Source: Azolla caroliniana | Lineage: Eukaryota > Plantae > Polypodiophyta | Length of the DNA: 64,000 nucleotides | Direction of reading: 5' to 3' | Assembly: GCA_043228905.1 (NCBI GenBank) | Contig: JBHGNT010000021.1 | Span: forward strand, 2,976,001-3,040,000 | Part shown: positions 10,600-37,382 of the stretch, piece by piece | Layout: each line of letters begins with the position of its first letter | How positions within the stretch are numbered: the stretch's first letter is position 1 | Made by a program: the position numbers and the translations under genes | The notes under the pieces: model-generated | Databases searched by the model: none | The model's input: the letters and a program-made list of their open reading frames with translations, nothing else | What the model was told of the DNA's origin: nothing

Positions 10600-11650
10600 C
10601 ATCTTCATGCTTCTTGGGCTTCTGTTGATGGAGCACACCTTTAATCTCGACAAATGGTCCCATAAACACAAATAATCTTTGTTTTGACCTCAATGAAGAC
10701 CCCACCTAACAATAATTTTTTAGACTCGGGACATGGGATACCATGTTGTTCAAGATTTCCATATAGCAATACGCTACAAGATTGGCCTCTCCTTTCATTT
10801 ACTTTGATTACGCACAATTTACAAAGCTTATTATCAATTCTACACATGTGTGGTTTTGAAATGACCTCATGGAGTTTTTCGACAGTGCCATGCAGAGATA
10901 ACCATTTTCTCAATGGTTATCAACATTCAACATTCAACACCACAAATCCACAAATGAGCCCCACCGCTCCCTCCAAAAACCTCAAACCGTCCTCCAACAC
11001 CAACATTTACCCTATCTACTTCTACCTTACTACTATTAAAGCCAAGATTTAGGCTTGTTCCCACTTTACGCTAAACCTTAATTCTTAATCTTTCTCTTCC
11101 CATCTTGTTTATATCAAATCACCATTCAAACAAGGATTTTAAGCTCCACCTATTTTAAAATTCAAATAGATGCAACTCATTTGATCCAATAAGGCTTACA
11201 CATTTAAATAAGACAATATTCTTAGAAATAATTGGTATGTTCACGCTGATACCTTCCTATATAGAATTACAAGAATTAATCATTATCTGGCCCATACATT
11301 TTTTATTGTGTCACTAACATTTCAAGACATTATCATACCTACTTGCACTCATCCTTAACCAATATTCCCAATAATGATCGTTGAAACCTCCCTGTATTTA
11401 AATTTATTGTTTAGTTATGGCTCATCATCATTTGATTTCTTTACTAATTCAAACATAATACATCATCATTTACAAACTTTGTTCAAGGAACATTGCATCA
11501 TCTTTAACAAGCTTTGATTGTTGATAATAGATATGCATCTTTTTAAAACAAGACAATCCAACTCATATAACATCTTGTTTTTTAGCTAGCTTATGGATTC
11601 CCTCTTTATTCATTGTGACATTGAGAATGTTGAATCAAGTTAACTTTACA
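10600..11650 (+). mobile_element. Highly decayed LINE-like remnant; part of the duplicated unit (homolog at ~19460-20040)
   Basis: 11060-11640 aligns with 19470-20030 (catttaaataa, tatagaatt, tttaacaagctttg, caatccaactca). LINE identity is inferred from broken RT-like frames. Confidence 0.45.
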
Positions 11651-12288
11651 AAATTGAGAATGTTCACAAATTGTTTGGAAACACATTTTTACAAGTGGTT
11701 GCACTTAAATCTGTTAATTCTTTATAGTTTTAGTTTTAGTTTTACTGAAAGTGTGTTTACAGTTTTTGGGTTATGCTGTGACAGTTTTGCTTTTGTGAAA
11801 AGTGTTTTCTGCAGTTAAGTTTGCTAATTCTTCATGATATCATTTTCATAGTAAGTGTTTGCACTTAAATTTGTTCATTCTTCATGATTTGGTGGTTTTA
11901 ACTTGAATCCAACCAATATTATATTAATGTCATATTAAAATTCTTTCGTCAAAAACAAACCAAGTTTTTAAATCATGTGAACATGATTTTAACGTCAATG
12001 AAAATAGAAGCCAATGTCAGATATGCCATATTAGATATTCAATGTTGTTCTTCAGTGTCCCTGTCAAATTATTTTGTTGATCAGAGTGAGATTAGACTTG
12101 GAAAGTTTCATCTTATAATGCCAAACTTAAGAGAACGACCCCATACTAGAGAACCAATGTCAACGATTTAAATTAAATAAGAAGAATAATAATAATCAAG
12201 CGTATATGTATAGATGTATATGTAAGTCTAGAATTGAATCTATTAACATGGCTATTATTTTTTAGCAAGAAGTAAAAACCTTTTTCTT

Positions 12289-14548
12289 TCAACGCCCATG
12301 GTTTCCCTTGACATCAAGTAGAGCACACATCGCATTGAATACCTAACAACAAATTTTAATCAGAAGGAAAAAGAATAAAAAAGTTGCTTATTTAGGTTTA
12401 ATTCTATGCTTGAAAAACATTATGTTAGATTTATGTGTCAAAGCAAGTATTGTATGTGGCATATCTTTTACTAGGCAACCACATATCACCCAGCTTGTGG
12501 GTAGATGACAGTTTGGATAGCTATATGTCTGGTCTTTTATATCGCCATGATACCCTAGGTGTATGTTTGACACTACAACTACCCAAAATATGCAACACTA
12601 CATAGTAAAACAATATTATACATACAACCTATATGCAGACATTATGGCATCCAGCATGTAAGAATTAAAAAGAAAACATACAGTTAACACGGCTGTATTT
12701 CAATTCCACCGCGTCAAAATACGCAAGTATATCCGTCCATTCTCATCAAATATTTGGGTGGAGATCTTCCTTAATGGTGCCCACAATCTAGTCCACATCA
12801 AGTCTGGAGGCAACAGGAAGACTGTGTTCCACATATTGTATGGGCATTTCAAGTACATGGTCACGTCTTTCAGTCTAACAAATATACCAGCCATTTTTGA
12901 GCAAATGATAAGCAGCATATTTCAGAAATTCATAGATCAGTTCATGGTGTACCTGACCTACACAATGTATTGATCTTCTCCCAGATTCAGGAGGATCACA
13001 CAACAAACATGTCCATTCATGCTCCCCCTTAGAGGATCACCATAACCAAACTGAAGGCATTGACAATCCACGAGCGGGTTGCTCCAACACACGTAAAGGA
13101 TGTTCAATCATTCTTCAGCTATGCAAACTTCTATCAACATTTCAACTGGAACTACTCAACAATCATAATGCCTTTGATTAATGATTGCAATTTCCAAGGG
13201 AATTCCAAAACCCACTTCCTATTTGAGATTTTCAAGAAAGCTTTCATATCCACCCAGATCACCCTCTATCTTGATTCAATGCCACCCTTAATATAATCCT
13301 ACCCGACCAGATTACAGAGGTATTCTGAACCCTGTTGAGTTCTAATCCCAGATATTTACTCTGAGGAGATCAATAATTCATTGTATGGTAAAGAGTTAAC
13401 TACCATCACCACCTGATAATTAAGTCGTCAGTGCTTGCTCATCTAGCTTCCTAATGTATCAATGACCTCAATGGAATATCCACACTACGTTTATGAAAGA
13501 AGAAGAAGAGAGAACTTGCAACAATCCATAGGAACAGGACTCAGGTATCAACAGATCTTCTTTCATATTTATATAAATGAAATACAATCAAACAAAAGGG
13601 AATCACTCATCAATCAATATGCTTACCTATGTTGCAATCCACAATTACTCTGTGCCTGCCTATTCCTTCATGCATTTATTGTTCAACAAATTAAACATTA
13701 CTAAAATTAAAATTTAAAACATTAAAACAATAGGAGCTGAAATTTTAGTTGTCCATGCACCTGAATTTAGAGAGGAAGAAAAGACTGATCTTTTGGGAGA
13801 CCCTGATGTTGATAAGTGAGTTGATTTAGTGCTTGTATAATCCCAATGAACACTCATACTTGTATGGTTAAAATGCTTGTCTAAGACTTGTACAGCTCAT
13901 CTCACTCATACTTGTTTGCTGCAATTATTCTCACTCGCATGGGTCCAAATGCATGCTTATGACTCAAAGTGATTCTGGTCATTGTAAGCCTTTGATTTAA
14001 CTAACCAGAAAATTAAGAGTTGAATGGTAAATAAATAGATATAACCAGAAACAAACAAAAAACACAAGTCAAATGACCTAAACAATACACAACAATACTA
14101 ATCACATGTAGATAATATAATAGAAACAAACTGGATAATTACATAAATAACTCTCGATCAGTTAATCGAACGAACAAAGCAAAATGTAGCTCATCGAAAT
14201 GTAACACGTAAAAGATGAAAATAAAAATAAAAATACCTGGGGAGGCGCATTAGGGTAATTTACAGAAAAGCCTAGAGTTTGTTAGGTAACAAAAAAAACA
14301 CGCCCAACACTTATTTTTTTCACTGTAGAGACGACCACAGAAGAAATTAAAACTGAAAACTCATTTCTGAACAACCAAGCAGAGGACAAATGAACACCAA
14401 ATCATCATGATGTTCCTGACTGTGCCAAGCCCATCATCTCTCTCTCGATCGATCGATCGATGCCTTCGGCGACGGCTTCGTAGATTCTGACTGTGCGATT
14501 CTATCGACGATTCTGTCTCTGGGATCTCCGCACATCTCTGCGTTGACA

Positions 14549-17542: not shown

Positions 17543-18635
17543 AGGGGGCAAGGGACAATGACCTTCCAACCACCAAAATGTGAAATGGCCTAAATAGTAT
17601 AGACTACAAAGGTCACATTTGATAACTTTTTGAACATCTTCTTCACTTCTATCCATAGAGATGAGAGCACTTTTAGACCTTAACGTCATAAAGTGTAATC
17701 AAAGCTTGTGTGTGAACTCACATTCCTTGGCAGGTATGTGTGTGCATGTGTGTGTGTGTGTGTGCTACTTATCCAATAGCAAACACCCTAGTCATGTTGC
17801 CGAAGGCTAAAGGGGGTTGAGATTGTAGGGGGATTTTATTGATATAGAGATTTCTACCTTAATGTGATAAGAGAGATGAAAAACCATTTAGTAAAAAAAT
17901 GTGTTTCCAATACATCATGTCGAATATGCCTATTACCAACATCACAAAACCAATTTTTCTTTACTCGCCCACTAAGGACAAAAGGTTTGAATTGTTCCTA
18001 CAACCCAACAAACTCTTGAAGACTTAGCTCCTAGACACACATGGATTGGCTCTTTCACCTTGACAAGTAATGTCTCATTCAATATGCTGAAATAACAACC
18101 TCGACCAAACACTCACTCCTAGACACACATGCCCATCAAGAGGTGTGTGTTTGCACACAAGGTATTTGGTTGGGCTTGTTATTTTAGCATATTTAACAAG
18201 ACATAAAAAGTCAGTGAGAAAGAACTAATCCACATGAGATTATGACAATGCTTGAACTAAGCCTTCAAGAGCTTCTAAGATTGTAGGAACAATTCCAATT
18301 GTTTGACCTTGGCGGGTGAGTAGAGAAAAAACTAATTTTGTGATGGTATTTAGACATGACATATTGGAAACATATATTTTTAGACAAAGCTTTTTCCATC
18401 ATTGACTTTACTACAAGAGATGCCTCGACCTAGCAGGATTGATAACACTACCCCCTAGTTGCCGTATTATATGAAGACTACACAAGTTTGAGATTGTGAG
18501 GTATTTGATTAATAGATAACTTTATATGACAAAATGTTGAAATAACCACAAAACATATCGACATTTGTAGTCTTGTACATTATTTATGACCATTCAAACT
18601 ATAGTTGTTAGAATGTCCTTATCCCTTGGCCCTTT
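17543..18635. mobile_element. ~1.1-kb degenerate foldback (long inverted repeat) element
   Basis: ggggcaagggacaatg (17545) vs ccttatcccttggccc (18617); gaattgttcctacaa (17990) vs ttgtaggaacaattc (18281); aatatgctgaaataacaa (18081) vs ttgttattttagcatatt (18176); centre near 18140. Confidence 0.8.
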
Positions 18636-20449
18636 CCCTTACATTTAGATATGTTCCTTTGGTAGGTTAATGTCAATGTCAACCCTTGTTGGAAACATAC
18701 AACATATATTTAACACACACACACATGGGTCCCCTTTGAAAAAAAGGCTTTGTGGAAATTTCCATGAAGTGAAAAGTATGTTTGACGTGTTGCTACCCAT
18801 TAATGTAGTAACAAGTGACACAAAGGTGAGCACGAAGTAGAGCTTCACGTGTTGCCATAGCTACTCCTACATGAACTACTAATGAACAACAAACAACATA
18901 GAACATCACGCTTCATGAGATCACCTAAGGCCAAGCAAACAATGTGGGCGTCGACCCAATGCAAGAGGTGTCAAACATCACTCTGCAACCTTCAACATTT
19001 TCATTTAATTACTTATATATGCCATTACATAAGACAAATTATATTGGCATACGATTACTATAGACCATTATACATTTGTCCACATACCCAGATTAACATA
19101 CACACTTTTTATTACTCGTCTCCACTCTTTTACACACCGACTACACATACATGTATGGAGATGTACAAAATTAAACACGAGTAGACTCACATACTCATAT
19201 GCATATGCATGCAATCCTTTCTATGCATGCATCTGCATGTATATACATATACAATCACAATATATATATGTACCATACACACACAAACATTCATGCACAT
19301 ACACATCTATAACCACCTACACAAGTACATATCACATTATTTAACCATACTCAAATTTGGATATACCCATCATGTCACACCAATAGGTTGACATTCTTGA
19401 AAGGGAAGGAAATCAAAGTATCTTATTAGCGCCAACATCTACCCTTTCTGACTACCATGACAACCTTTCTCACTTTAGATTAGAGCTAATTTTAATTTAT
19501 CTCTCCCAATTTCATTGATATTGAATGATGATGCAAACAAGAAATTTGAGTTTCCCAATACTTGCCAATTTAAACAAGGCCTTGCATTTAAATAAAGAAA
19601 TATTCATGGCAATAATTACAAATTAAAACCGTAGTATATAGAATTGTGACAATTAATGAAACCATGTCATGTTCATAATTTTGCCCATGCCATTTGTATT
19701 GCATTGCCAATGTTTGAAGAAATTTTTAGTGATAAACCGCTATTTTATCCTTGAAAACTTCCATTCAAAATTGTTCATTAGGCAAGCCTCGTCATTGTTT
19801 GAACTAATTGCTCATTTAAATATTCATCATTATCCTTGAATGTCAAGACAATTGATATCGTTTTTAACAAGCTTTGTTTGTTGGTGTGCACCTTATTATC
19901 AAAACATGTCAATCCAACTCAATTATAACATCATACCTTATTACTAGCACATTAATTGATTACTCATTTGATTAAATTATTTGGTGAATTATATTTGCCA
20001 ACATTTAATGTTGTCAAGTTACATTGGTAGTAACGAGTTGTTAAAACCCATTTTTATTGAAATTGCTTGCACGGACGTGTTGGGCAGCGCCGAGCTTTCT
20101 CCCTACCGAGTCTCTCCCTGTGTGTTGAGGATCCAAAGCGAGTGCACCGGGGATAAGGGAAACTGGGATTCAATATGGGCATAGCAAACATCTGAAGCGT
20201 AACCACACACTCACACGACCTTTGCCGCTTCACCCGGATGAACCGCTAGAGAAATAGGAGCATTTTTTTTTGCACTTAAATTCGTTCATTCTTGATGGTT
20301 TTGGCTTTTATCAAACTTTGCATCTAAATTTGCTTGTTCTTGATGGTTTGGTTTTGCATCTACTAATAGCATTTATAAGACTTTAAAAATATGTTCCTAC
20401 CTCAAGATTTGGGGGGTTTCGACTTGGATGCCAGCCGCCTCTATTATAA

Positions 20450-20595
20450 TAATGCATCATACTAAAAACCCTAGAAAAAACAAGATACTAAGAAGATCTC
20501 GAATAATGCATCATATTAAAAACCCTAGAAAAAACAAGATACTAAGAAGTACTCGAATCATGAATCATACTAAAAACCCTAGAAAAACAAGATAC
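20450..20595. repeat. Three-copy ~54-57-bp tandem repeat
   Basis: atcatactaaaaaccctagaaaaaacaagatac repeated three times. Confidence 0.9.
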
Positions 20596-21150
20596 CAACA
20601 TGGTTTGTAGAGTCAACTGGATAGTGGAGCGTATGTCGGATCAAATAAGATCTCTTTGGTCATGACTCATTACTAATAGATGGCAATGAGACTAGACTAG
20701 AAACCAATGAGTCCACACTTAATCTAGCCATAGTTACAAGAACCCCATCCATCCTACTAGAGAACCGGCCCCCCCAAAAAAATGATTTTAACTTAAATAG
20801 GAAGGACAATATTCCAATTTATACATATGTACATATATGATATATGTATAGAAGAGTCTTGAATTTGTTTTGACTCAAGTACAAAAAGAAAACCTTATTG
20901 TTTGTTATTAACTCCTGCCGCTGTCTCTCTGTTACAAAAAACAAGAGCCAGAGAGAATGAATATCTATCTACTCTAGGGTTTTGTTAACCAGAAAAAAAG
21001 AAAGAAAGAAAACCCTAGAAACAGAAAGGATCACAGAGAAGCACAGTAACAGAAAGGAACCCTAGAATTACTGCTTTTCTCAACAGGATGAAGCGACACC
21101 ATACCTGGCACATATACATACATATGTATATAATTCTCCTCCCTAGAGTC

Positions 21151-21327
21151 CTACCACCAGTTCATCCTTCCGATATCCCTGCCCATTGTTTGAGAGATCA
21201 GAGATACACAACCAGCAGAGACAACCAAAGACCACAAGAGAATGGCGAGGACTGTCGGCAATATATAGCTCAGAATAACAGCATAGACCACAACGATCGC
21301 AAAGATACTGGAATTATCGAGGCGCAT
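21151..21327 (-). CDS. Candidate 58-aa hydrophobic microprotein in UBC-array unit C
   Basis: MRLDNSSIFAIVVVYAVILSYILPTVLAILLWSLVVSAGCVSLISQTMGRDIGRMNWW*; preceded by (CT)n and the leader CAGGGCTACAGACACAGA shared with copy B; followed by donor CAG|GTATGG at 21105/21104 and UBC-like 3' UTR. Below the ORF-track cutoff; no family recognised. Confidence 0.5.
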   Translation of the reverse strand: MRLDNSSIFAIVVVYAVILSYILPTVLAILLWSLVVSAGCVSLISQTMGRDIGRMNWW

Positions 21328-24300
21328 CTTGTCTCTGTTATATGAAGCTTTTGTCTTCGCAGGAGGGATTTATCTCTGTGTCTGTAGCCCTGACCTGGCG
21401 CAGAGAGAGAGAGAGATAGTAATGAATGCTCTGTTCCCTCCCAAGCTTTTAGATCCATTCTCCCATGGAGACCAGAAAGAGTGAATGGAGGAAGGAGTCA
21501 AGGGTCTTCTGGGTCAATCATGACTCATGACTGGACCAAAGACTAGGTCATGACTCATGAATGGACAAAGACTAGGTCAAATCCCTCCTAGTATGTATGT
21601 ACACATTCATTGGTAGTACGCACTCGAGTTCACGTTCATATTCGTAGATCTTTGGCCATTGTCGGGGGTGGGCTGTGGCTTCTCTTCATGATTGAGCTTG
21701 ATTTCACGTTCAATATTCATAGATCTTGTCAAATATATATATCTATATATATATATAGAGAGAGAGAGTCCTAGCCCACCCCCGATAATGCCAAAAGTGG
21801 ACCACCATTGCATAACAGATGTAAAAGCTGAGTTGTGACGTGACAGGATTACTATGATGAGCATGTATACCTTCCTCAATTATGTGGCCCACAAGACTCA
21901 AAGTGAAAATCCATTTTCTTATAGTATGTTATGCGTAGACTTAAAGAGTCGCGAGTCGATTGCTTATGAGGAGTGTTAAAAACATATATATAGAGTTGTT
22001 GGTTTGATATATGACCCACGAGACATGAGAAAAGAAAAGCATGCTAATGTTGTAGAGATGAGTATGTGCAAAACCTCATAAGAAAATATACGAGTAGCCC
22101 ATGAGCCCAAAAGTGACATATTTTCATGAGCACAAAGTCGAGAAAAGTGGATTATTATGATCCATCCATGACTACATGGTACACCCTTACTCCCATCCAT
22201 ATGTTGAGGAGAGAGTAGATTATAATGATTCATCCATAACCACATGCTTGCTTCCATCCATATAATGGTACCCAAAATTTCAATTCTCCATCGTCACTTC
22301 ATCTCTTATTGTAATTGAAAAGTAATAAGCAATATATAGTTTTCTTTCCGTTTCACTATCTTACCGTAGTATGGTCGACCAACTATTATAATCTCAAATT
22401 TCCACAAAACCAAACTTCTCTATTCTAGGGTTGTATTTATTTAATATCATGTGAGCTTCTCAAATGCATGAATCCAATGCTAGGTTCAAGCTACATGCAA
22501 ATAACCACATAAATTTGAGGGTTAACATGCATGTAGTGGGAGTATTGCGATGATCATCATTATGTTGTTACACTAGGTCAATCAAATGTATATTGGTCGG
22601 TTCCTTCTTCACCTAATCAATTATATTCAAAGATATGTGTGTCCAAGTAGTAAGCAGATTGTACAATGAATTTAAATTGTCAAATCAATTCTAAGTGGTT
22701 GGTGTTAAGGTATACAACAAATTGGAGGGAATGAGATTCCCAAACCATTGGAAGTTCTATATCGAAGACTATGCATGTTGAGCATGTGCCTCTTCTAGAC
22801 AACACAGAGGCAAGTGTATAAGGACACTAATAGAATTAGTCATGGGTGAGCACACAAAGTTGACAGGAAGTAGCAAAGGGAGGTCTGTCTCTAGGGGGCA
22901 TGGGGGAATGTTTTATGACCTACTAAAGAAGTGGTATCAAAGTGAAATGGAAGGTTAGTGTTGAAATTATCGCCCATTTCTACTACTTTGATTTGAGGGA
23001 CCGATACATTGTGGTTTGCCAAGGGTTAGTTGTCATGGTTGTACAATGATGTGGTTGGCAAGGGTTTGCCGTGTTGGCTAGCAAAATTGGTCGTAATCTT
23101 TCAAGCTTGATTACCAATCTGGGGAAATGAATTCTCATGTGGAGGAGAGTGAAATGCCCCTGTTGAGATATCAAGCTCAACTTAGTTTAGTCGTTTAGTC
23201 AACACGTGTAACTTAGTAGTTACCTAGATAGAATCTAGTTAGTGTGTTGACCTTAAAGCCTCCACTCCCATGTTCATTTAATATAGGACTTACACGTTTG
23301 TACCTATATTCTACTCATATATTATACCTCATTGTGGGTATTTTTGTATTTTGATGATGATGATGCTAATTTAATATAGAGTTAATCATCCCCCATCTTG
23401 TCTCGTTGTTCATAGTGTTAACTTCCTCTCTCTCTTCCTCTCACACACATACACACACATATCACTTAATCTTCCACTTAACTTAATCATATAATTAGTT
23501 AATAATTAACCCTTGCTTAATTACCTAATTCTTAACAACCCCTAACACATTGATGATCACCAATTGACAATTATCGAGACAAGACCTACACATATGTCAA
23601 CAAGGACACACATTGGATGGGAATTCATGCGACACACAATTGTAGGTTACATAACGGAACACTATAATTAGTACTTGATGCAACACACTTATAAGAAGAG
23701 GAAGGGAGAACAACATAAATTTAGAGAAACCAAAGAAGATTAATGAGTGCATAACTTGTAGGAGCAACGTGCCACTAATAACAGTGGATTATGAAAGGTT
23801 ATCTCACGGTTTGCGATCTTTGTGTCTCTCTCCATTCTTCTTTGCACAAAATCTATTCACACTTCTTAGCTTGTGACAACCTAAACAATACAACTTATTT
23901 AGAGGTGGGGAGATGTGTTTTTCCCTTGTTGAAAGTCACACTTTGCTTTAAAGTCATTTCTAGGGTTATATCCATTTGCTTTAAAATCATTTTAATGGTT
24001 ATATCCCCTTTTCCCAAGAATCTAATCTACAACTATCATGCTATACTATGGTGTTGACGAAGTCATTTTTAAATTTCTATGTTGACCCTAAACTTATTTA
24101 TTAATTTTTGTGATTGTTAATTAATTCTATTATAATCCCCTCTTTCATGCATCTCTTAGTCCAAAGCCCTAAATTTTACACTAAACCACACATAGATCCA
24201 CCACATTATTGTGGAACAATGCTCTCATTAGATATGTGTGCTTGTTATGAATCACAACATCATATGCTGACCTCTATACCGTAATGCTTGGCTTAAGTTT

Positions 24301-25568
24301 TACGTTGAATATGGAAAATAAAGGATGCTTTGTCATTGTAAATGTGGTGGTATATTGGATGCATGTAAAGTTGTCAAGGATTAGATGACCCAAAGGTGGT
24401 ATCTAGATATGTTTAATATGAACATGATGAGGAAGATTGATTTGCTTTGAGCATATGCAAATTCATGGTATGTTTCAACTATTGAGGAAGTGCTCAATCA
24501 AGGATTCATGGCTAGCCATTGTCTTACACAAAACGGGTTGGGGAAGGATAATCACCGACTTTCCATCATTTTGTGTCTTGTAGCTGATATGCTTTTTAAA
24601 ACTAATGGAAGGATATGTTTTCTATAATAAAAAAACTTATTCTCTATAGCGAAAACACACCCAACATGCCATGTGCTCTAGAAAAAGTCCATGTCTTCAC
24701 ATTAAACCCTTCTTCTAGAAAGATTGCTTGCTTTCCTATCATTTCCATGCTCTAACAAGTGCACATATTTACAACACATCATTGATGTTTGTATGGTAAA
24801 GATAATGTATCTACCACTCATTTACATGCTCTAGCAAACAATGTATTTACTTCACTACATACACTCATGCTCTAACCAATATTACAATGTTTCAAGAACA
24901 CCTACATTGCCAAATTGTTTTCGCCACCTAATTTTTGAAGTCTCATTCCTTAAAATTTTCCTCATTAGATCTACCTCATCATTGATTGATTACTATCCAC
25001 AATAGCATATTTGTTTATTCTTGAAAGTTGATAGTTTAGTTTCAAAGGTGTTTTTTGAACTGAAATTAGTTCTTTCTTTATGGTTTTGACTATAGATGAT
25101 GGGGCTTCTATCATACGTTCATTGTTGACTGTGTTGTTTCAATTGCAAGTGTTTTTTGCACTTAAATTTGTTCATTAATCATGATTTATTGTTGGTTTCA
25201 ACTGGGATCCACCATTATTATATTAATGCATATCATATTCAAAGTCCTTAAACAAAAAAATACTAAGAAGCCTCCAAATCTTGCTAACATTATTGTAAAG
25301 TCAAATAAAAAATTGGAACTGATCATGCCGTATGATATGATCAAATGAGTTCATCTCATCATGCCATAGTTATTGAGAACATCACCCTACTAGAGAACCA
25401 ACGTCAATTAAGGATTAGTTAAGGATAATCAAACTTATATATAGAGAAAAATATATACAAGTCTAGAGATAAATTGATTAGCATGGTTATTTATGCTCAG
25501 CAAGAAGTAAAAACCTTACTGTTAACTCATGCACTTCCTTCAACCCGCATGGTTTGGCTAATTGAGGT

Positions 25569-28375
25569 TCAGACAACAACTAGAGAGCATATCGCAATCA
25601 ACACCTAGCCACCATTTTTCACAAGGAAAAATAATTAAAAGGTTGATGATTCAGATACAGTTCTATGTTTGAAAAACATTATGCTACGTTTTATGTGTTG
25701 AAGCATATTTTGTGTGTGGCAGATAAGAGTTTGGATAGCTATGGTCTTTTATATCACTGTGAAACCCTAGGTGTATGTCAAGATATGCTGTACTACACAG
25801 TAAAACAATATTATAAATACCACCTATATGGAAAAAACAATATGGCCTTGGGCATATAAGTGATAAAAAGAGAACGTACAACTGACATGGTTGTCTCCGG
25901 ATGCCATTACCTCAAAATACCCAAGTTTAGCCGTCCATTTCTATCAACATTTCTACCAATGTTTGGGTGGGAAGCTCCTCCCACAAATGTTACCTAATCA
26001 AATAATAGAACACAGTATAAGTAACTAACATCATTATGGCAATGGTTAAAATTGAAAATACAACTAGCAAAAAATCAATTGTCCCATCAAACTCAAAGAA
26101 GAAGCATCTCCTTATAGGAACTGATCTACAAACTCTCTGAGCTCGAGGTCCAAGCCCTCTGGTTTTACATTGATGAGATCTTGGGAATCGCTTCATTTGC
26201 CATTCCAAGTTTCCCATTGGGTTGACACCTATCCTATTTGTTGAGAAGAACAGATCCCTATCACCAAGTGTCAATGATCAGGGACTCAATTGAATAATCA
26301 TCTGAAACCAATACCCACAACACTTGATCCACACACACGTTTCTCAATCTTCTTTGATTGGTGATGATTTTTTCCAACAACATCAATTTTCGTGGTGTCT
26401 ACAATGAACCCCACATCAAGCCTGGAGATGAGAGGAAGACTGTGTTCCACACATAGTACGGGCAGCTGTTTACCACATTCACATATTTCAGGAATTCATG
26501 GAAAGTTCTTCATGAGAGATGCCTGGCAACACATTGAACTTCTCGCAGACTCAATAGAACCACAGTCACCATCTCGTTCTCCACTTTAGAGGATCACCAT
26601 AAAAAGAGAATTCCTTAGCAGATGACAGCCGTAACTGGAACCCTGTTAAGTTCTACTCTGAGAAATTTACCCTTATAGAGGCCAACCATTCAATATATAT
26701 GATAAGAAGTTGCCTAATATCATTTCCACCTTTGAGGAATGGCATTCTTACTTGGTGGAGGTGGTGACCGTAAAAACAGTACCCATCTCACCACTCCCTG
26801 TTCGCTGATGCATTGTCAAGATCTCTTATCAACTTTGAAATATTGTTACGGGCAGGGTCCTTGCAAGGTAAAAGTGAACATTCTTTCTCAGGGCAGAGTT
26901 CAACTTTAGTTGGGTTGTGGGGCCACAACCAAGAAGCTAAGACCCTTTTGAAGCTAGACAATATCAACCTAGTCGCCAGATACACACTCCAAATCAAGAT
27001 ACCCTCACAGCAACAGGCTCCAATCGCCGGCCAAAGAGATCAAATTCATATTTGATTCGACCAAAGTCTCAGGAAATTACGACTCAGACCAGTTCACATT
27101 TGAAGATGGGCTCCTCCGGAATATCCTGGTCCATGTCCAAGATGGTCCCATTTGCATCAAGATCTTATCTGAGGCCACATGGGAAAACTGGATTTCCCTA
27201 GTTTTTCGCAACTAAGATTTGTACATGGAAAAGTTACCTTTATATGTGACTACAATTATACCACCTAAGAGGATTTACCGTAACTAGATCCCCTCACTAT
27301 CATAGGAGGGAAAGCATAGGTTTTTGCCACATTATTCTAATATACACACTACATTTACAAAAGAAGAAGAAGAAAGAGAACAGTCCATAGGGAAGGGAGT
27401 CAGTCAGGTATAAATGAAATATAATTGAACAAATTGGGATGCACTAATTGATAGGTATCCTGATCTCTATTACTAGCCATGACTTCACTGTGGATATCGA
27501 CTCTTTAACATACATCTGTTTCAGAAATTCAAAATTCCTAATATTAAAAAATTTAAGGCTTTAAAACAATAACCAAAACCAGAAATATAACAATCGGTCA
27601 CTATATAGATACATAAAATAAGAAACAAAGAAAAAAATGAAATGGACTAAACAATAAAAAATGATAATAACAATAATAACCACATGCAGATCATATAATA
27701 GAAACAAACAAGAAAAGCAATTGTCAATCAAACAAGCAAAGCAATGTAGCTCATCAAAATGTAACAAATAAAAATACAAGTACCTTAGGTGGTGCATCGG
27801 GATAATTACAAGGGAAACAAATGCGAAATAAGAACACTCGTTGAGCATGGCCAAATATAGCAGCTTCTCAACAGAACATATCTCCTTCATAAAGATCTGA
27901 GGAAATATATACATATATATAACCAAAAAGAAAAAGAAGTTACAAAAACAAAACGTACACACTCGCAGAAGAGAAAATGGTTTTTTTAGCCCAAACAAGA
28001 CAATATAATAAACCAGAACAGAGAATAGGATAGAAAAACAGGGAGGAGAAAGAATGCTCTGCTCTTTTTCTTACAGAAGCCAAAAAAGGAAAGCGTACTA
28101 GGCAGAGAAAACAGAATCTCCCATTTTTTAAAAGCCTTGAGGACAAAATAACAACCCTGAAATTGAGCTTTTCGAGCAAAATTGAACTTTTGTGAATGCA
28201 AACAAGTACAGGAAAAGGAATCTAGAAAACTTGCTTTATTGAACAGGATGATGCACGAAAAAGAAAGAAATCCTTAATTTTGGTAGACGGGTCACAGCAA
28301 CGTACCTACAGTAAAAGACGAGGCAACATTTGCCTGCACATTCGTGAGCTCCCGGTTGATTCTTTCGGAAGCCTC
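25569..28375 (-). pseudogene. UBC-derived pseudogene, copy B (UEV-like); exons 28375-28306, 27896-27784, 25993-25880, 25604-25569
   Basis: EASERINRELTNVQANVASSFTV / DLYEGDMFC*EAAIFGHAQRVFLFRICFPCNYPDAPPK / VTFVGGASHPNIGRNVDRNGRLNLGILR*WHPETTMSV / VLIAICSLVVV*. All GT-AG sites and phases match the intact gene; ATG replaced by GAG, two internal stops, catalytic Cys replaced by Asn. Confidence 0.9.
26400..27180 (+). mobile_element. Ty3/gypsy RT-RNase H remnant in intron 2 of UBC copy B (same insertion as in copy A)
   Basis: cacatcaagcctggagatgagaggaagactgtgttccacaca matches 12794-12832; YDKKLPNIISTFEEWHSYL resembles RNase H YDKELLAII.AFEEWRHYL; RAGSLQGK motif follows. Confidence 0.85.
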
Positions 28376-28842
28376 GGAGTTTGGGGGATCTGTGTCTGTG
28401 TCTGTGTCTGTAGCCCTGCTCAAAGCTCACAGGACAGAGAGACGGCGAGAGACAGAGGAAAGGAAGTAATGGTGTGTGGCCTAAACCATACGTGAATTCT
28501 CATTCGCGTATGGTAAATACCATACTTTTATATAAATGATTTATTATAAAGGTAATGTTTTTTCATAGGTAAGAAAGTTAAGGTAAAAAGTGTAAATAAA
28601 AACATAAGAATATTGTAAAGAAAAACATAAGAACGTAATATACTCGAATGCAGCGTATGAAGAAAGAGGTTTAAATACATACGATTATCAATTCATTTTT
28701 TTTGTCTTAGTGTTAAGTTGTTAGAACTGAGCACTATTAGGTCTTGGGTTCGAAACCTAATTTTCTCGCCTATCTATAATTCCTTGCATATACATACATA
28801 TCCTCTTCATTTATTCGATCGACTTTAGAATTTGCCCACGTA

Positions 28843-35080: not shown

Positions 35081-37382
<2,302 letters not shown>

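What the first reader, a model, noticed from the sequence alone, without database searches (positions are those of the whole stretch)
20250..21560. UBC gene shell apparently repurposed for a 58-aa membrane microprotein
Seen: this unit carries the same flanking blocks as the other UBC units (ttgcacttaaatt.gttcatt at ~20270, 11860, 25156; tactagagaacc at ~20755, 12145, 25388; aaaaccttat 3'-UTR block at ~20889 vs 35046), a leader motif (CAGGGCTACAGACACAGA) shared with copy B, and a donor CAG|GTATGG like the UBC exon-1 donor. No E2 coding sequence is left. Instead 21327-21151 is an ATG-initiated ORF with ~35 nearly uninterrupted hydrophobic residues. A short intron (21104 to ~20929 or 20915) follows, and the stop lies 46 nt upstream of the junction, inside the usual 50-55 nt limit for escaping junction-dependent NMD. 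Inference: a new small-protein gene born inside a duplicated housekeeping transcription unit.
Basis: partly seen in the sequence, partly recalled or inferred. Interest (0 to 1): 0.8.

Follow-up and report, generated by a model that had tools for sequence, protein, structure and literature searches.

The report
Gutted gene copy hosting new ORF
A duplicated copy of a ubiquitin-conjugating enzyme gene lost its enzyme-coding exons but is still made into a spliced RNA whose first reading frame would encode an unrelated 58-amino-acid water-repelling peptide, likely a young proto-gene with no demonstrated function yet.

Summary
Unit C is a decayed tandem copy of the intact UBC gene at 35-37 kb: its leader motif occurs only in copies B and C of the 523-Mb assembly (plus a haplotig), and its intron and 3' blocks align to the other copies (z 4-13). 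Exons 2-4 are deleted. Contigs from three studies show GT-AG splicing on the minus strand, two at exactly 21104/20929 and one to a second acceptor at 20471. The 58-codon ORF is the first AUG, ends 46 nt before the junction and has the most hydrophobic 35-residue stretch of 153 ORFs in the window. But translation and selection are not shown. There are no homologues, codon usage equals composition, the ORF DNA is intron-like T-rich and aligns to no UBC copy, the promoter is not recognisably inherited, and a relative about 11% diverged carries the same gutted shell without laying on ORF codons 18-58. Verdict: a real transcribed gene fossil carrying a likely young membrane-type proto-gene. This is the known partial de novo (duplication-degeneration-divergence) pattern, seen here in a plant UBC shell. 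A functional microprotein is about 20% likely.

The parts
21105..21409 (-). Exon 1 of the unit C transcript (21409 is the 5'-most contig base; the true start site is not established)
   Evidence: X5 contig of 577 nt covers 21409-21105 then 20928-20657 with 0 differences; X7 covers 21398-21104
21375..21392 (-). 18-nt leader motif shared with decayed UBC copy B
   Evidence: Only in B, C and C's haplotig genome-wide; leader versus B z=7.7
21344..21351 (-). Likely position of the ancestral UBC start codon, now not ATG
   Evidence: Global alignment to B and D; inference, not tested for significance
21151..21327 (-). 58-codon ORF, first AUG of the spliced RNA; residues 8-45 hydrophobic with a central proline; DNA not alignable to any UBC copy
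   Evidence: ORF, hydropathy; no alignment to A, B, D
20929..21104 (-). 176-nt GT-AG intron, derived from the start of UBC intron 1, with a new acceptor
   Evidence: Joint in X8 and X5 contigs; aligns to D 37250-37087, z=4.4
20471..21104 (-). Alternative 634-nt GT-AG intron to a second acceptor in a T-rich tandem repeat
   Evidence: One contig in X7, 35 letters on the short side; acceptor sequence
20657..20928 (-). Exon 2, the former UBC 3' UTR; the exon 2-4 deletion joint lies near 20930-20907; contigs continue to 20300 at lower depth
   Evidence: Aligns to 3' ends of A, B, D with z=10.5, 11.0, 13.0; contigs
19466..20509 (-). Downstream flank homologous to copies A and B, interrupted by a ~198-bp young insertion
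   Evidence: nhmmer E 3.7e-21 to A 11702-11057 and 1.3e-9 to B 25284-25049
35081..37382 (-). Copy D: intact 4-exon, 148-aa UBC (E2) gene, the functional relative
   Evidence: Exons join to an open 447-nt CDS; family name recalled, not from a call
25050..28420 (-). Copy B: decayed UBC duplicate (start codon lost, stops in exons 2-3); shares the leader with C
11057..14300 (-). Copy A: heavily decayed UBC duplicate

Best explanation
Unit C is a transcribed, spliced remnant of a tandem UBC duplicate that lost exons 2-4, and its first reading frame is a 58-codon hydrophobic ORF unrelated to UBC that is likely a young, so far unselected proto-gene. Shown: the shell (leader, start of intron 1, 3' end) descends from the UBC array; the E2 coding sequence is gone; the RNA is spliced on the minus strand with two acceptors; the ORF is the first AUG and stops 46 nt before the junction. 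Inferred: the deletion came first (a relative about 11% diverged has the same gutted shell); about 180-240 nt of T-rich DNA of unresolved origin, perhaps old local duplications, came to fill exon 1; scanning ribosomes would translate the ORF because nothing precedes it; the RNA would escape junction-dependent NMD; and the peptide, hydrophobic largely because T-rich codons encode hydrophobic residues, would be triaged to a membrane or degraded. A selected function is not shown.
For: Shell homology. Splicing in 3 of 4 runs from 3 studies, while DNA run X3 is contiguous through the intron. First AUG, A at -3, 46 nt to junction. ORF DNA does not align to A, B or D (anchored p=0.60 and 0.14; control B vs D p=0.002; 8 of 8 whole-unit tests p>0.12). 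Hydrophobic part is 44% T, like the UBC introns (44-47% T). Codon usage equals stop-free shuffles (P=0.32 and 0.26). No homologue. Relative X18: one 2075-nt contig lays on 19466-21110 in four pieces (125 substitutions in about 1160 nt), has only 128 nt between intron start and 3' UTR, runs 257 nt past 21110, yet depth is 0 on 21142-21275. Other strongly hydrophobic ORFs occur in non-coding DNA of this window: 22 of 153 ORFs have a 19-residue hydropathy of 1.8 or more, 4 of 153 (query included) reach the query's 2.54.
Against: Hydrophobicity exceeds what composition predicts: P=0.012 for the best 19 residues, 0 of 3000 for the best 35, P=0.003 for the hydrophobic segment (segment chosen after the fact); an ORF of 58 or more codons this hydrophobic arises in 0.1% of shuffled mRNAs, and a first-AUG ORF that long in 2.7%. 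The ORF has 0 differences between two haplotypes 1.8% apart and in all 5 runs that cover part or all of it (X5, X7, X8, X13, X3). That identity also covers intron and 3' UTR (916-nt block), so it is not coding-specific. The letters of the relative's contig beyond 21110 were not displayed, so absence there is inferred from depth and pieces.
Confidence: 0.6

Rival explanations
1. The ORF is already a functional, selected membrane microprotein (single long anchor or proline-kinked hairpin) born in the UBC shell.
For: First AUG of a spliced RNA seen in three studies; most hydrophobic 35-mer of 153 ORFs and beyond composition; no change between haplotypes; stop within the 50-nt NMD limit (PMC3711448 abstract).
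Confidence: 0.2
2. The RNA or its transcription matters, not the peptide: a fossil lncRNA acting in cis on the UBC array or sharing 3' UTR regulators with copy D, with an incidental ORF.
For: The shell is older than the split from relative X18 and the 102 nt around the donor differ at only 4 letters there, against about 11% in flanks; the 916-nt haplotype-identical block spans the whole transcript; 3' UTR still aligns to D.
Against: No Rfam match (best E 0.9); exon 1 folds no better than shuffles (z -0.65); 3' UTR identity to D is low and gapped; the acceptor region is replaced in X18.
Confidence: 0.1
3. The ORF DNA is a captured fragment of a pre-existing membrane-protein gene or mobile element, so the peptide is recycled, not new.
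For: Hydrophobicity above composition; the segment aligns to no UBC copy.
Against: No source in the own genome by DNA or protein search beyond a chance-level hit at E 0.17 with no DNA similarity; single-copy depth on the ORF in DNA run X3 laid at 80%; no hit among 1.84 billion representatives; weak internal in-frame repeat of 66 nt (p=0.007-0.04) points to local origin.
Confidence: 0.1

Closest known systems
Partial de novo origination / duplication-degeneration-divergence model (fish type I antifreeze genes from GIG2, GIMAP4, LNPKB; PMC11403476, passages read)
   Same: A duplicate keeps 5' UTR, intron and 3' UTR of the parent while the parent's coding sequence is deleted and a coding sequence without homology takes its place.
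   Different: There the new proteins are proven, selected and amplified, and grow from a parental coding fragment; here no function or translation is shown, the ORF has no trace of parental coding sequence, and the host is a plant housekeeping E2.
TM-first de novo ORFs from thymine-rich DNA (yeast YBR196C-A; PMC7005711, abstract; Triticeae-specific genes, PMC10020141, passages)
   Same: Short orphan ORF, T-rich, predicted membrane-spanning, lineage-restricted.
   Different: Those arise in intergenic or transposon non-coding DNA; this one sits inside an inherited, spliced transcription unit.
Fossil lncRNAs from lost protein-coding genes (PMC5577775, abstract)
   Same: A locus loses coding capacity but stays transcribed and spliced using inherited elements, and may carry a short ORF.
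   Different: Those are single-copy gene losses in mammals and the JPX ORF is an inherited uORF; here the parent survives in tandem and the ORF matches no parental leader.
RCI2/PMP3 small plant membrane proteins (size and two-helix layout recalled)
   Same: About 54-58 aa, mostly hydrophobic with a central proline.
   Different: No Pfam Pmp3 match at E up to 10; no sequence relatives.

Membership tests
Partial de novo gene (DDD model) | Non-coding framework inherited from a duplicated parent gene | tested here: met
   Leader, intron start and 3' UTR align to UBC copies; promoter does not
Partial de novo gene (DDD model) | Parental coding sequence degenerated or deleted | tested here: met
   No tblastn hit in unit C; intron 1 joined to the 3' UTR
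Partial de novo gene (DDD model) | New ORF without homology to the parental coding sequence, on an expressed RNA | tested here: met
Partial de novo gene (DDD model) | New protein is made and has a selected function | not testable with these tools
   No Ribo-seq, proteomics or genetics available; indirect signs mixed
TM-first proto-gene | Predicted transmembrane segment encoded by thymine-rich DNA | tested here: met
   Best 19-residue hydropathy 2.54, 40 uncharged residues, 44% T; hydropathy only, no dedicated TM predictor
TM-first proto-gene | Orthologous non-coding sequence in an outgroup showing the enabling mutations | tested here: inconclusive
   Relative X18 has the shell but does not lay on ORF codons 18-58; its letters there were not shown
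TM-first proto-gene | Translation and membrane localisation | not testable with these tools
   None available
Conserved plant membrane microprotein (RCI2/PMP3 or other Pfam family) | Profile or sequence match to the family | tested here: not met
   Pfam best E 0.23 to DUF7299, far below cutoff; 0 hits; Atlas best 0.84, recognition 1969
Structured ncRNA or miRNA precursor | Rfam match or unusually stable fold | tested here: not met
   3 chance-level Rfam matches, none in exon 1; z -0.65
Transcribed duplicated pseudogene (fossil lncRNA) | Spliced RNA from a locus homologous to a coding gene, without its coding frame | tested here: met

The most novel reading that the evidence does not exclude
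A plant housekeeping E2 gene copy was hollowed out and, within less than about 11% sequence divergence, its inherited leader, intron and 3' end came to express a wholly new, functional 58-aa membrane microprotein under a new promoter with W-box-like motifs, with dead sister copies A and B and an ORF-less orthologue preserving the steps of its birth.
Probability: 0.2. Interest if true: 0.7.

Novelty: new member of a known kind. Interest (0 to 1): 0.45.

Why it matters
Cases in which a duplicate's non-coding shell hosts a brand-new ORF are mostly described after the fact, from proven proteins such as fish antifreezes. This locus offers the stage before: an intact parent, two dead sisters, an expressed gutted copy with a first-AUG hydrophobic ORF, and a close relative with the same shell apparently without the ORF. 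That makes the order of events (shell and expression first, ORF later) and the TM-first idea directly testable in a plant. If the peptide is not made or not needed, it is an ordinary transcribed pseudogene.

Tried and rejected
Homologue searches gave nothing: no candidate, lengths 31-102 aa only; 0 of 1.84 billion at E 0.001; Pfam; Atlas, all under 0.9; these libraries cover short plant ORFs poorly, so the blanks are weak. Own-genome hit L005 (E 0.17) has no DNA similarity and was rejected. A metagenome pattern scan found 0 matches. No holder is on record as RNA; the RNA nature of X5, X7 and X8 rests on the GT-AG joints. X17 and X19 did not lay an orthologous contig and X13 covers only 21164-21345; these holes are not used as evidence. 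Origin of the ORF from expanded UBC exon 1 was rejected. Origin by duplication of the promoter-leader was suggested by colinear anchors but reached significance in only part of 9 tests (versus B leader p=0.007, 0.046, 0.16 under three scorings; versus own promoter p 0.18-0.60): a lead only. The codon-usage test first ranked the ORF high (4 and 1 of 120 at or above it), but its positive controls were inconsistent and the signal vanished against shuffles. miRNA or structured RNA rejected. No tRNA in the 20073-20269 insertion. A structure prediction was submitted and had not finished at five collections, so no model or fold search exists. Literature: no paper held all of 'ubiquitin-conjugating enzyme', 'pseudogene', 'tandem duplicat', 'micropeptide'; listings showed no plant case like this locus; subscription papers are not covered and no supplements were read.
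Full report
Setting. The window holds a tandem array of four UBC-related units on the minus strand. Copy D (37382-35081) is an intact four-exon gene with an open 148-aa E2 frame (the family name is recalled). Copies A (about 11.1-14.3 kb) and B (about 25.1-28.4 kb) are decayed and align to each other and to D at 65-80%; B keeps a recognisable exon 1 without a start codon and has stops in exons 2-3. Unit C is the finding. The genome appears to be a land plant from its gene content (recalled from the translations).

Observation. The 18-nt leader motif has three matches in the 523-Mb assembly: B, C and C's second copy on contig C655. C655 is colinear with the window over about 19 kb at 1.8% divergence (317 differences in 17,740 aligned bases), so it reads as a second haplotype, not a paralogue. 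Against dinucleotide shuffles, C's leader aligns to B (z=7.7), its intron to the start of D intron 1 (z=4.4; both T-rich, so partly compositional), and its exon 2 to the 3' UTRs of A, B and D (z=10.5, 11.0, 13.0); the downstream flank matches A at E 3.7e-21. The intron alignment ends near D 37087 and the 3' alignment starts at D 35064, just past D's stop: a deletion removed exons 2-4. tblastn of D's protein finds nothing in C. The 300 nt upstream of the leader align to none of the three other promoters, so the inherited shell is leader, intron start and 3' end, not demonstrably the promoter. The donor matches D's at 13 of 14 letters but not significantly (p=0.16), and the bases just after it match 45-60 nt inside the ancestral intron: either the old donor plus a short deletion, or a new donor.

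Expression. Of four runs laid, X8 and X5 (two studies) have contigs that skip 21104-20929 with GT-AG ends on the minus strand, exactly the predicted intron; the X5 contig (577 nt, 0 differences) spans leader, whole ORF and exon 2. X7 (a third study) joins the same donor to an acceptor at 20471; X13 covers only part of exon 1. DNA run X3 is contiguous through the intron, so the joints are splicing. These are contigs: level, start and end are not shown, and no run is on record as RNA.

The ORF. In all four isoform models the 58-codon ORF is the first AUG (82 nt from the contig 5' end, A at -3) and the longest sense ORF; its stop is 46 nt before the junction. In plants, introns more than 50 nt past the stop trigger NMD (PMC3711448, abstract), so the RNA would escape that branch. 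Residues 6-45 lack charged and amide residues. The best 35-residue hydropathy (2.37) is the highest of 153 ATG ORFs of 50 aa or more in the window, but two plainly non-coding ORFs are close (2.33, 2.29) and 22 of 153 have a membrane-like 19-mer. Shuffled mRNAs give a first-AUG ORF this long in 2.7% and an ORF this long and hydrophobic in 0.1%; given its own composition the ORF is more hydrophobic than stop-free shuffles (P=0.012 for 19 residues, 0 of 3000 for 35). This is a real but after-the-fact signal, since the locus was picked for it. Codon usage is no better than shuffles. No homologue was found.

Origin of the ORF DNA. It aligns to no UBC copy on either strand, and an anchored test that recovers B versus D (p=0.002) fails for C versus B and D (p=0.60, 0.14). 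Its hydrophobic part is 44% T, like the local introns. It has no other copy in the assembly and single-copy depth in X3. A weak in-frame internal repeat of 66 nt (p=0.007-0.04) and a scoring-dependent likeness of its 3' half to B's pyrimidine-rich leader hint at old local duplications; this is not established.

Conservation. The two haplotypes are identical over 916 nt (21350-20435), the longest such block, covering ORF, intron and 3' UTR alike; for the ORF alone 0 differences has probability 0.04 at the mean rate and 0.3 at the downstream rate, so it is not a coding signal. The informative comparison is run X18, another organism label. One 2075-nt contig lays on 19466-21110 in four pieces with 125 substitutions in about 1160 nt (about 11%), and has only 128 nt between intron start and 3' UTR, so the loss of exons 2-4 predates the split. 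The contig runs 257 nt beyond 21110, yet X18 depth on 21142-21275 (codons 18-58) is zero at an 80% threshold. A selected ORF should lay better than neutral flanks. The ORF segment is therefore likely absent, replaced or much more diverged there. The letters were not displayed and further joints were cut from the table, so gain in this lineage cannot be told from loss in the relative.

Mechanism. Shown: duplication, deletion of exons 2-4, continued spliced transcription, first-AUG hydrophobic ORF. Inferred: translation by scanning; escape from NMD; triage of the hydrophobic product to a membrane or to the proteasome, as described for non-coding translation products in human cells (10.1101/2022.07.20.500724, abstract; not shown in plants here). 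Best reading: a proto-gene in a fossil transcription unit (0.6). Rivals: selected microprotein (0.2), RNA-level function (0.1), captured coding fragment (0.1).

Comparison with what is known. The layout matches partial de novo origination and the duplication-degeneration-divergence model, in which degenerated duplicates keep UTRs and introns and gain new ORFs (PMC11403476, 12 passages read). The ORF matches TM-first emergence from T-rich DNA (PMC7005711, abstract; PMC10020141, 12 passages read), and the RNA matches fossil lncRNAs (PMC5577775, abstract). It meets the structural criteria of the first; the defining functional criterion could not be tested. Searches (listings only) showed no report of this locus or of a plant UBC case.

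Verdict. Observation confirmed and strengthened by splice evidence; interpretation partly supported. New member of a known kind; interest 0.45; a functional new microprotein 0.2 likely, worth 0.7 if true.

Noticed in passing
window 20073-20269: A ~198-bp insertion with a 6-bp target duplication and a T-run at one end; absent from haplotig C655 and from contigs of X3 and X18; at least 11 near-identical copies (98-100%) in the assembly. Looks like a young SINE-type element; no tRNA found.
   Followed up: partly
window 27657-28737: Haplotig C655 lacks this 1.08-kb stretch, which holds copy B's leader, exon 1 and exon 2: B is still being deleted.
   Followed up: no
window 28378-28306: Copy B exon 1 is still an open frame alignable to UBC (39% identity) with the start codon lost, as if B evolved for a time as a divergent E2 before dying.
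   Followed up: no
window 21580-21497: Three W-box-like TTGAC(C/T) and two TGAGTCA motifs within about 85 nt upstream of unit C, against 1.2 and 0.17 per kb in the window; partly produced by a ~30-nt tandem duplication. Could be a new stress-type promoter (motif names recalled).
   Followed up: partly
window 20435-21350: 916-nt block with no difference between the two haplotypes, matching the transcript's extent, while 2 kb upstream differ by 3.4%; gene conversion, a recent sweep or assembly polishing are all open.
   Followed up: partly
window 23160-23380: Very high-copy short repeat (summed contig depth in the tens of thousands in X3 and X18), MITE-like.
   Followed up: no
window 17878-18396: 519-bp imperfect palindrome, 67% self-complementary, possibly a foldback element.
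   Followed up: no
window 27561-27914: A 117-codon hydrophobic ORF over copy B's decayed exon 2 and T-rich intron 2, nearly as hydrophobic as the finding's: a natural control, expression untested.
   Followed up: no
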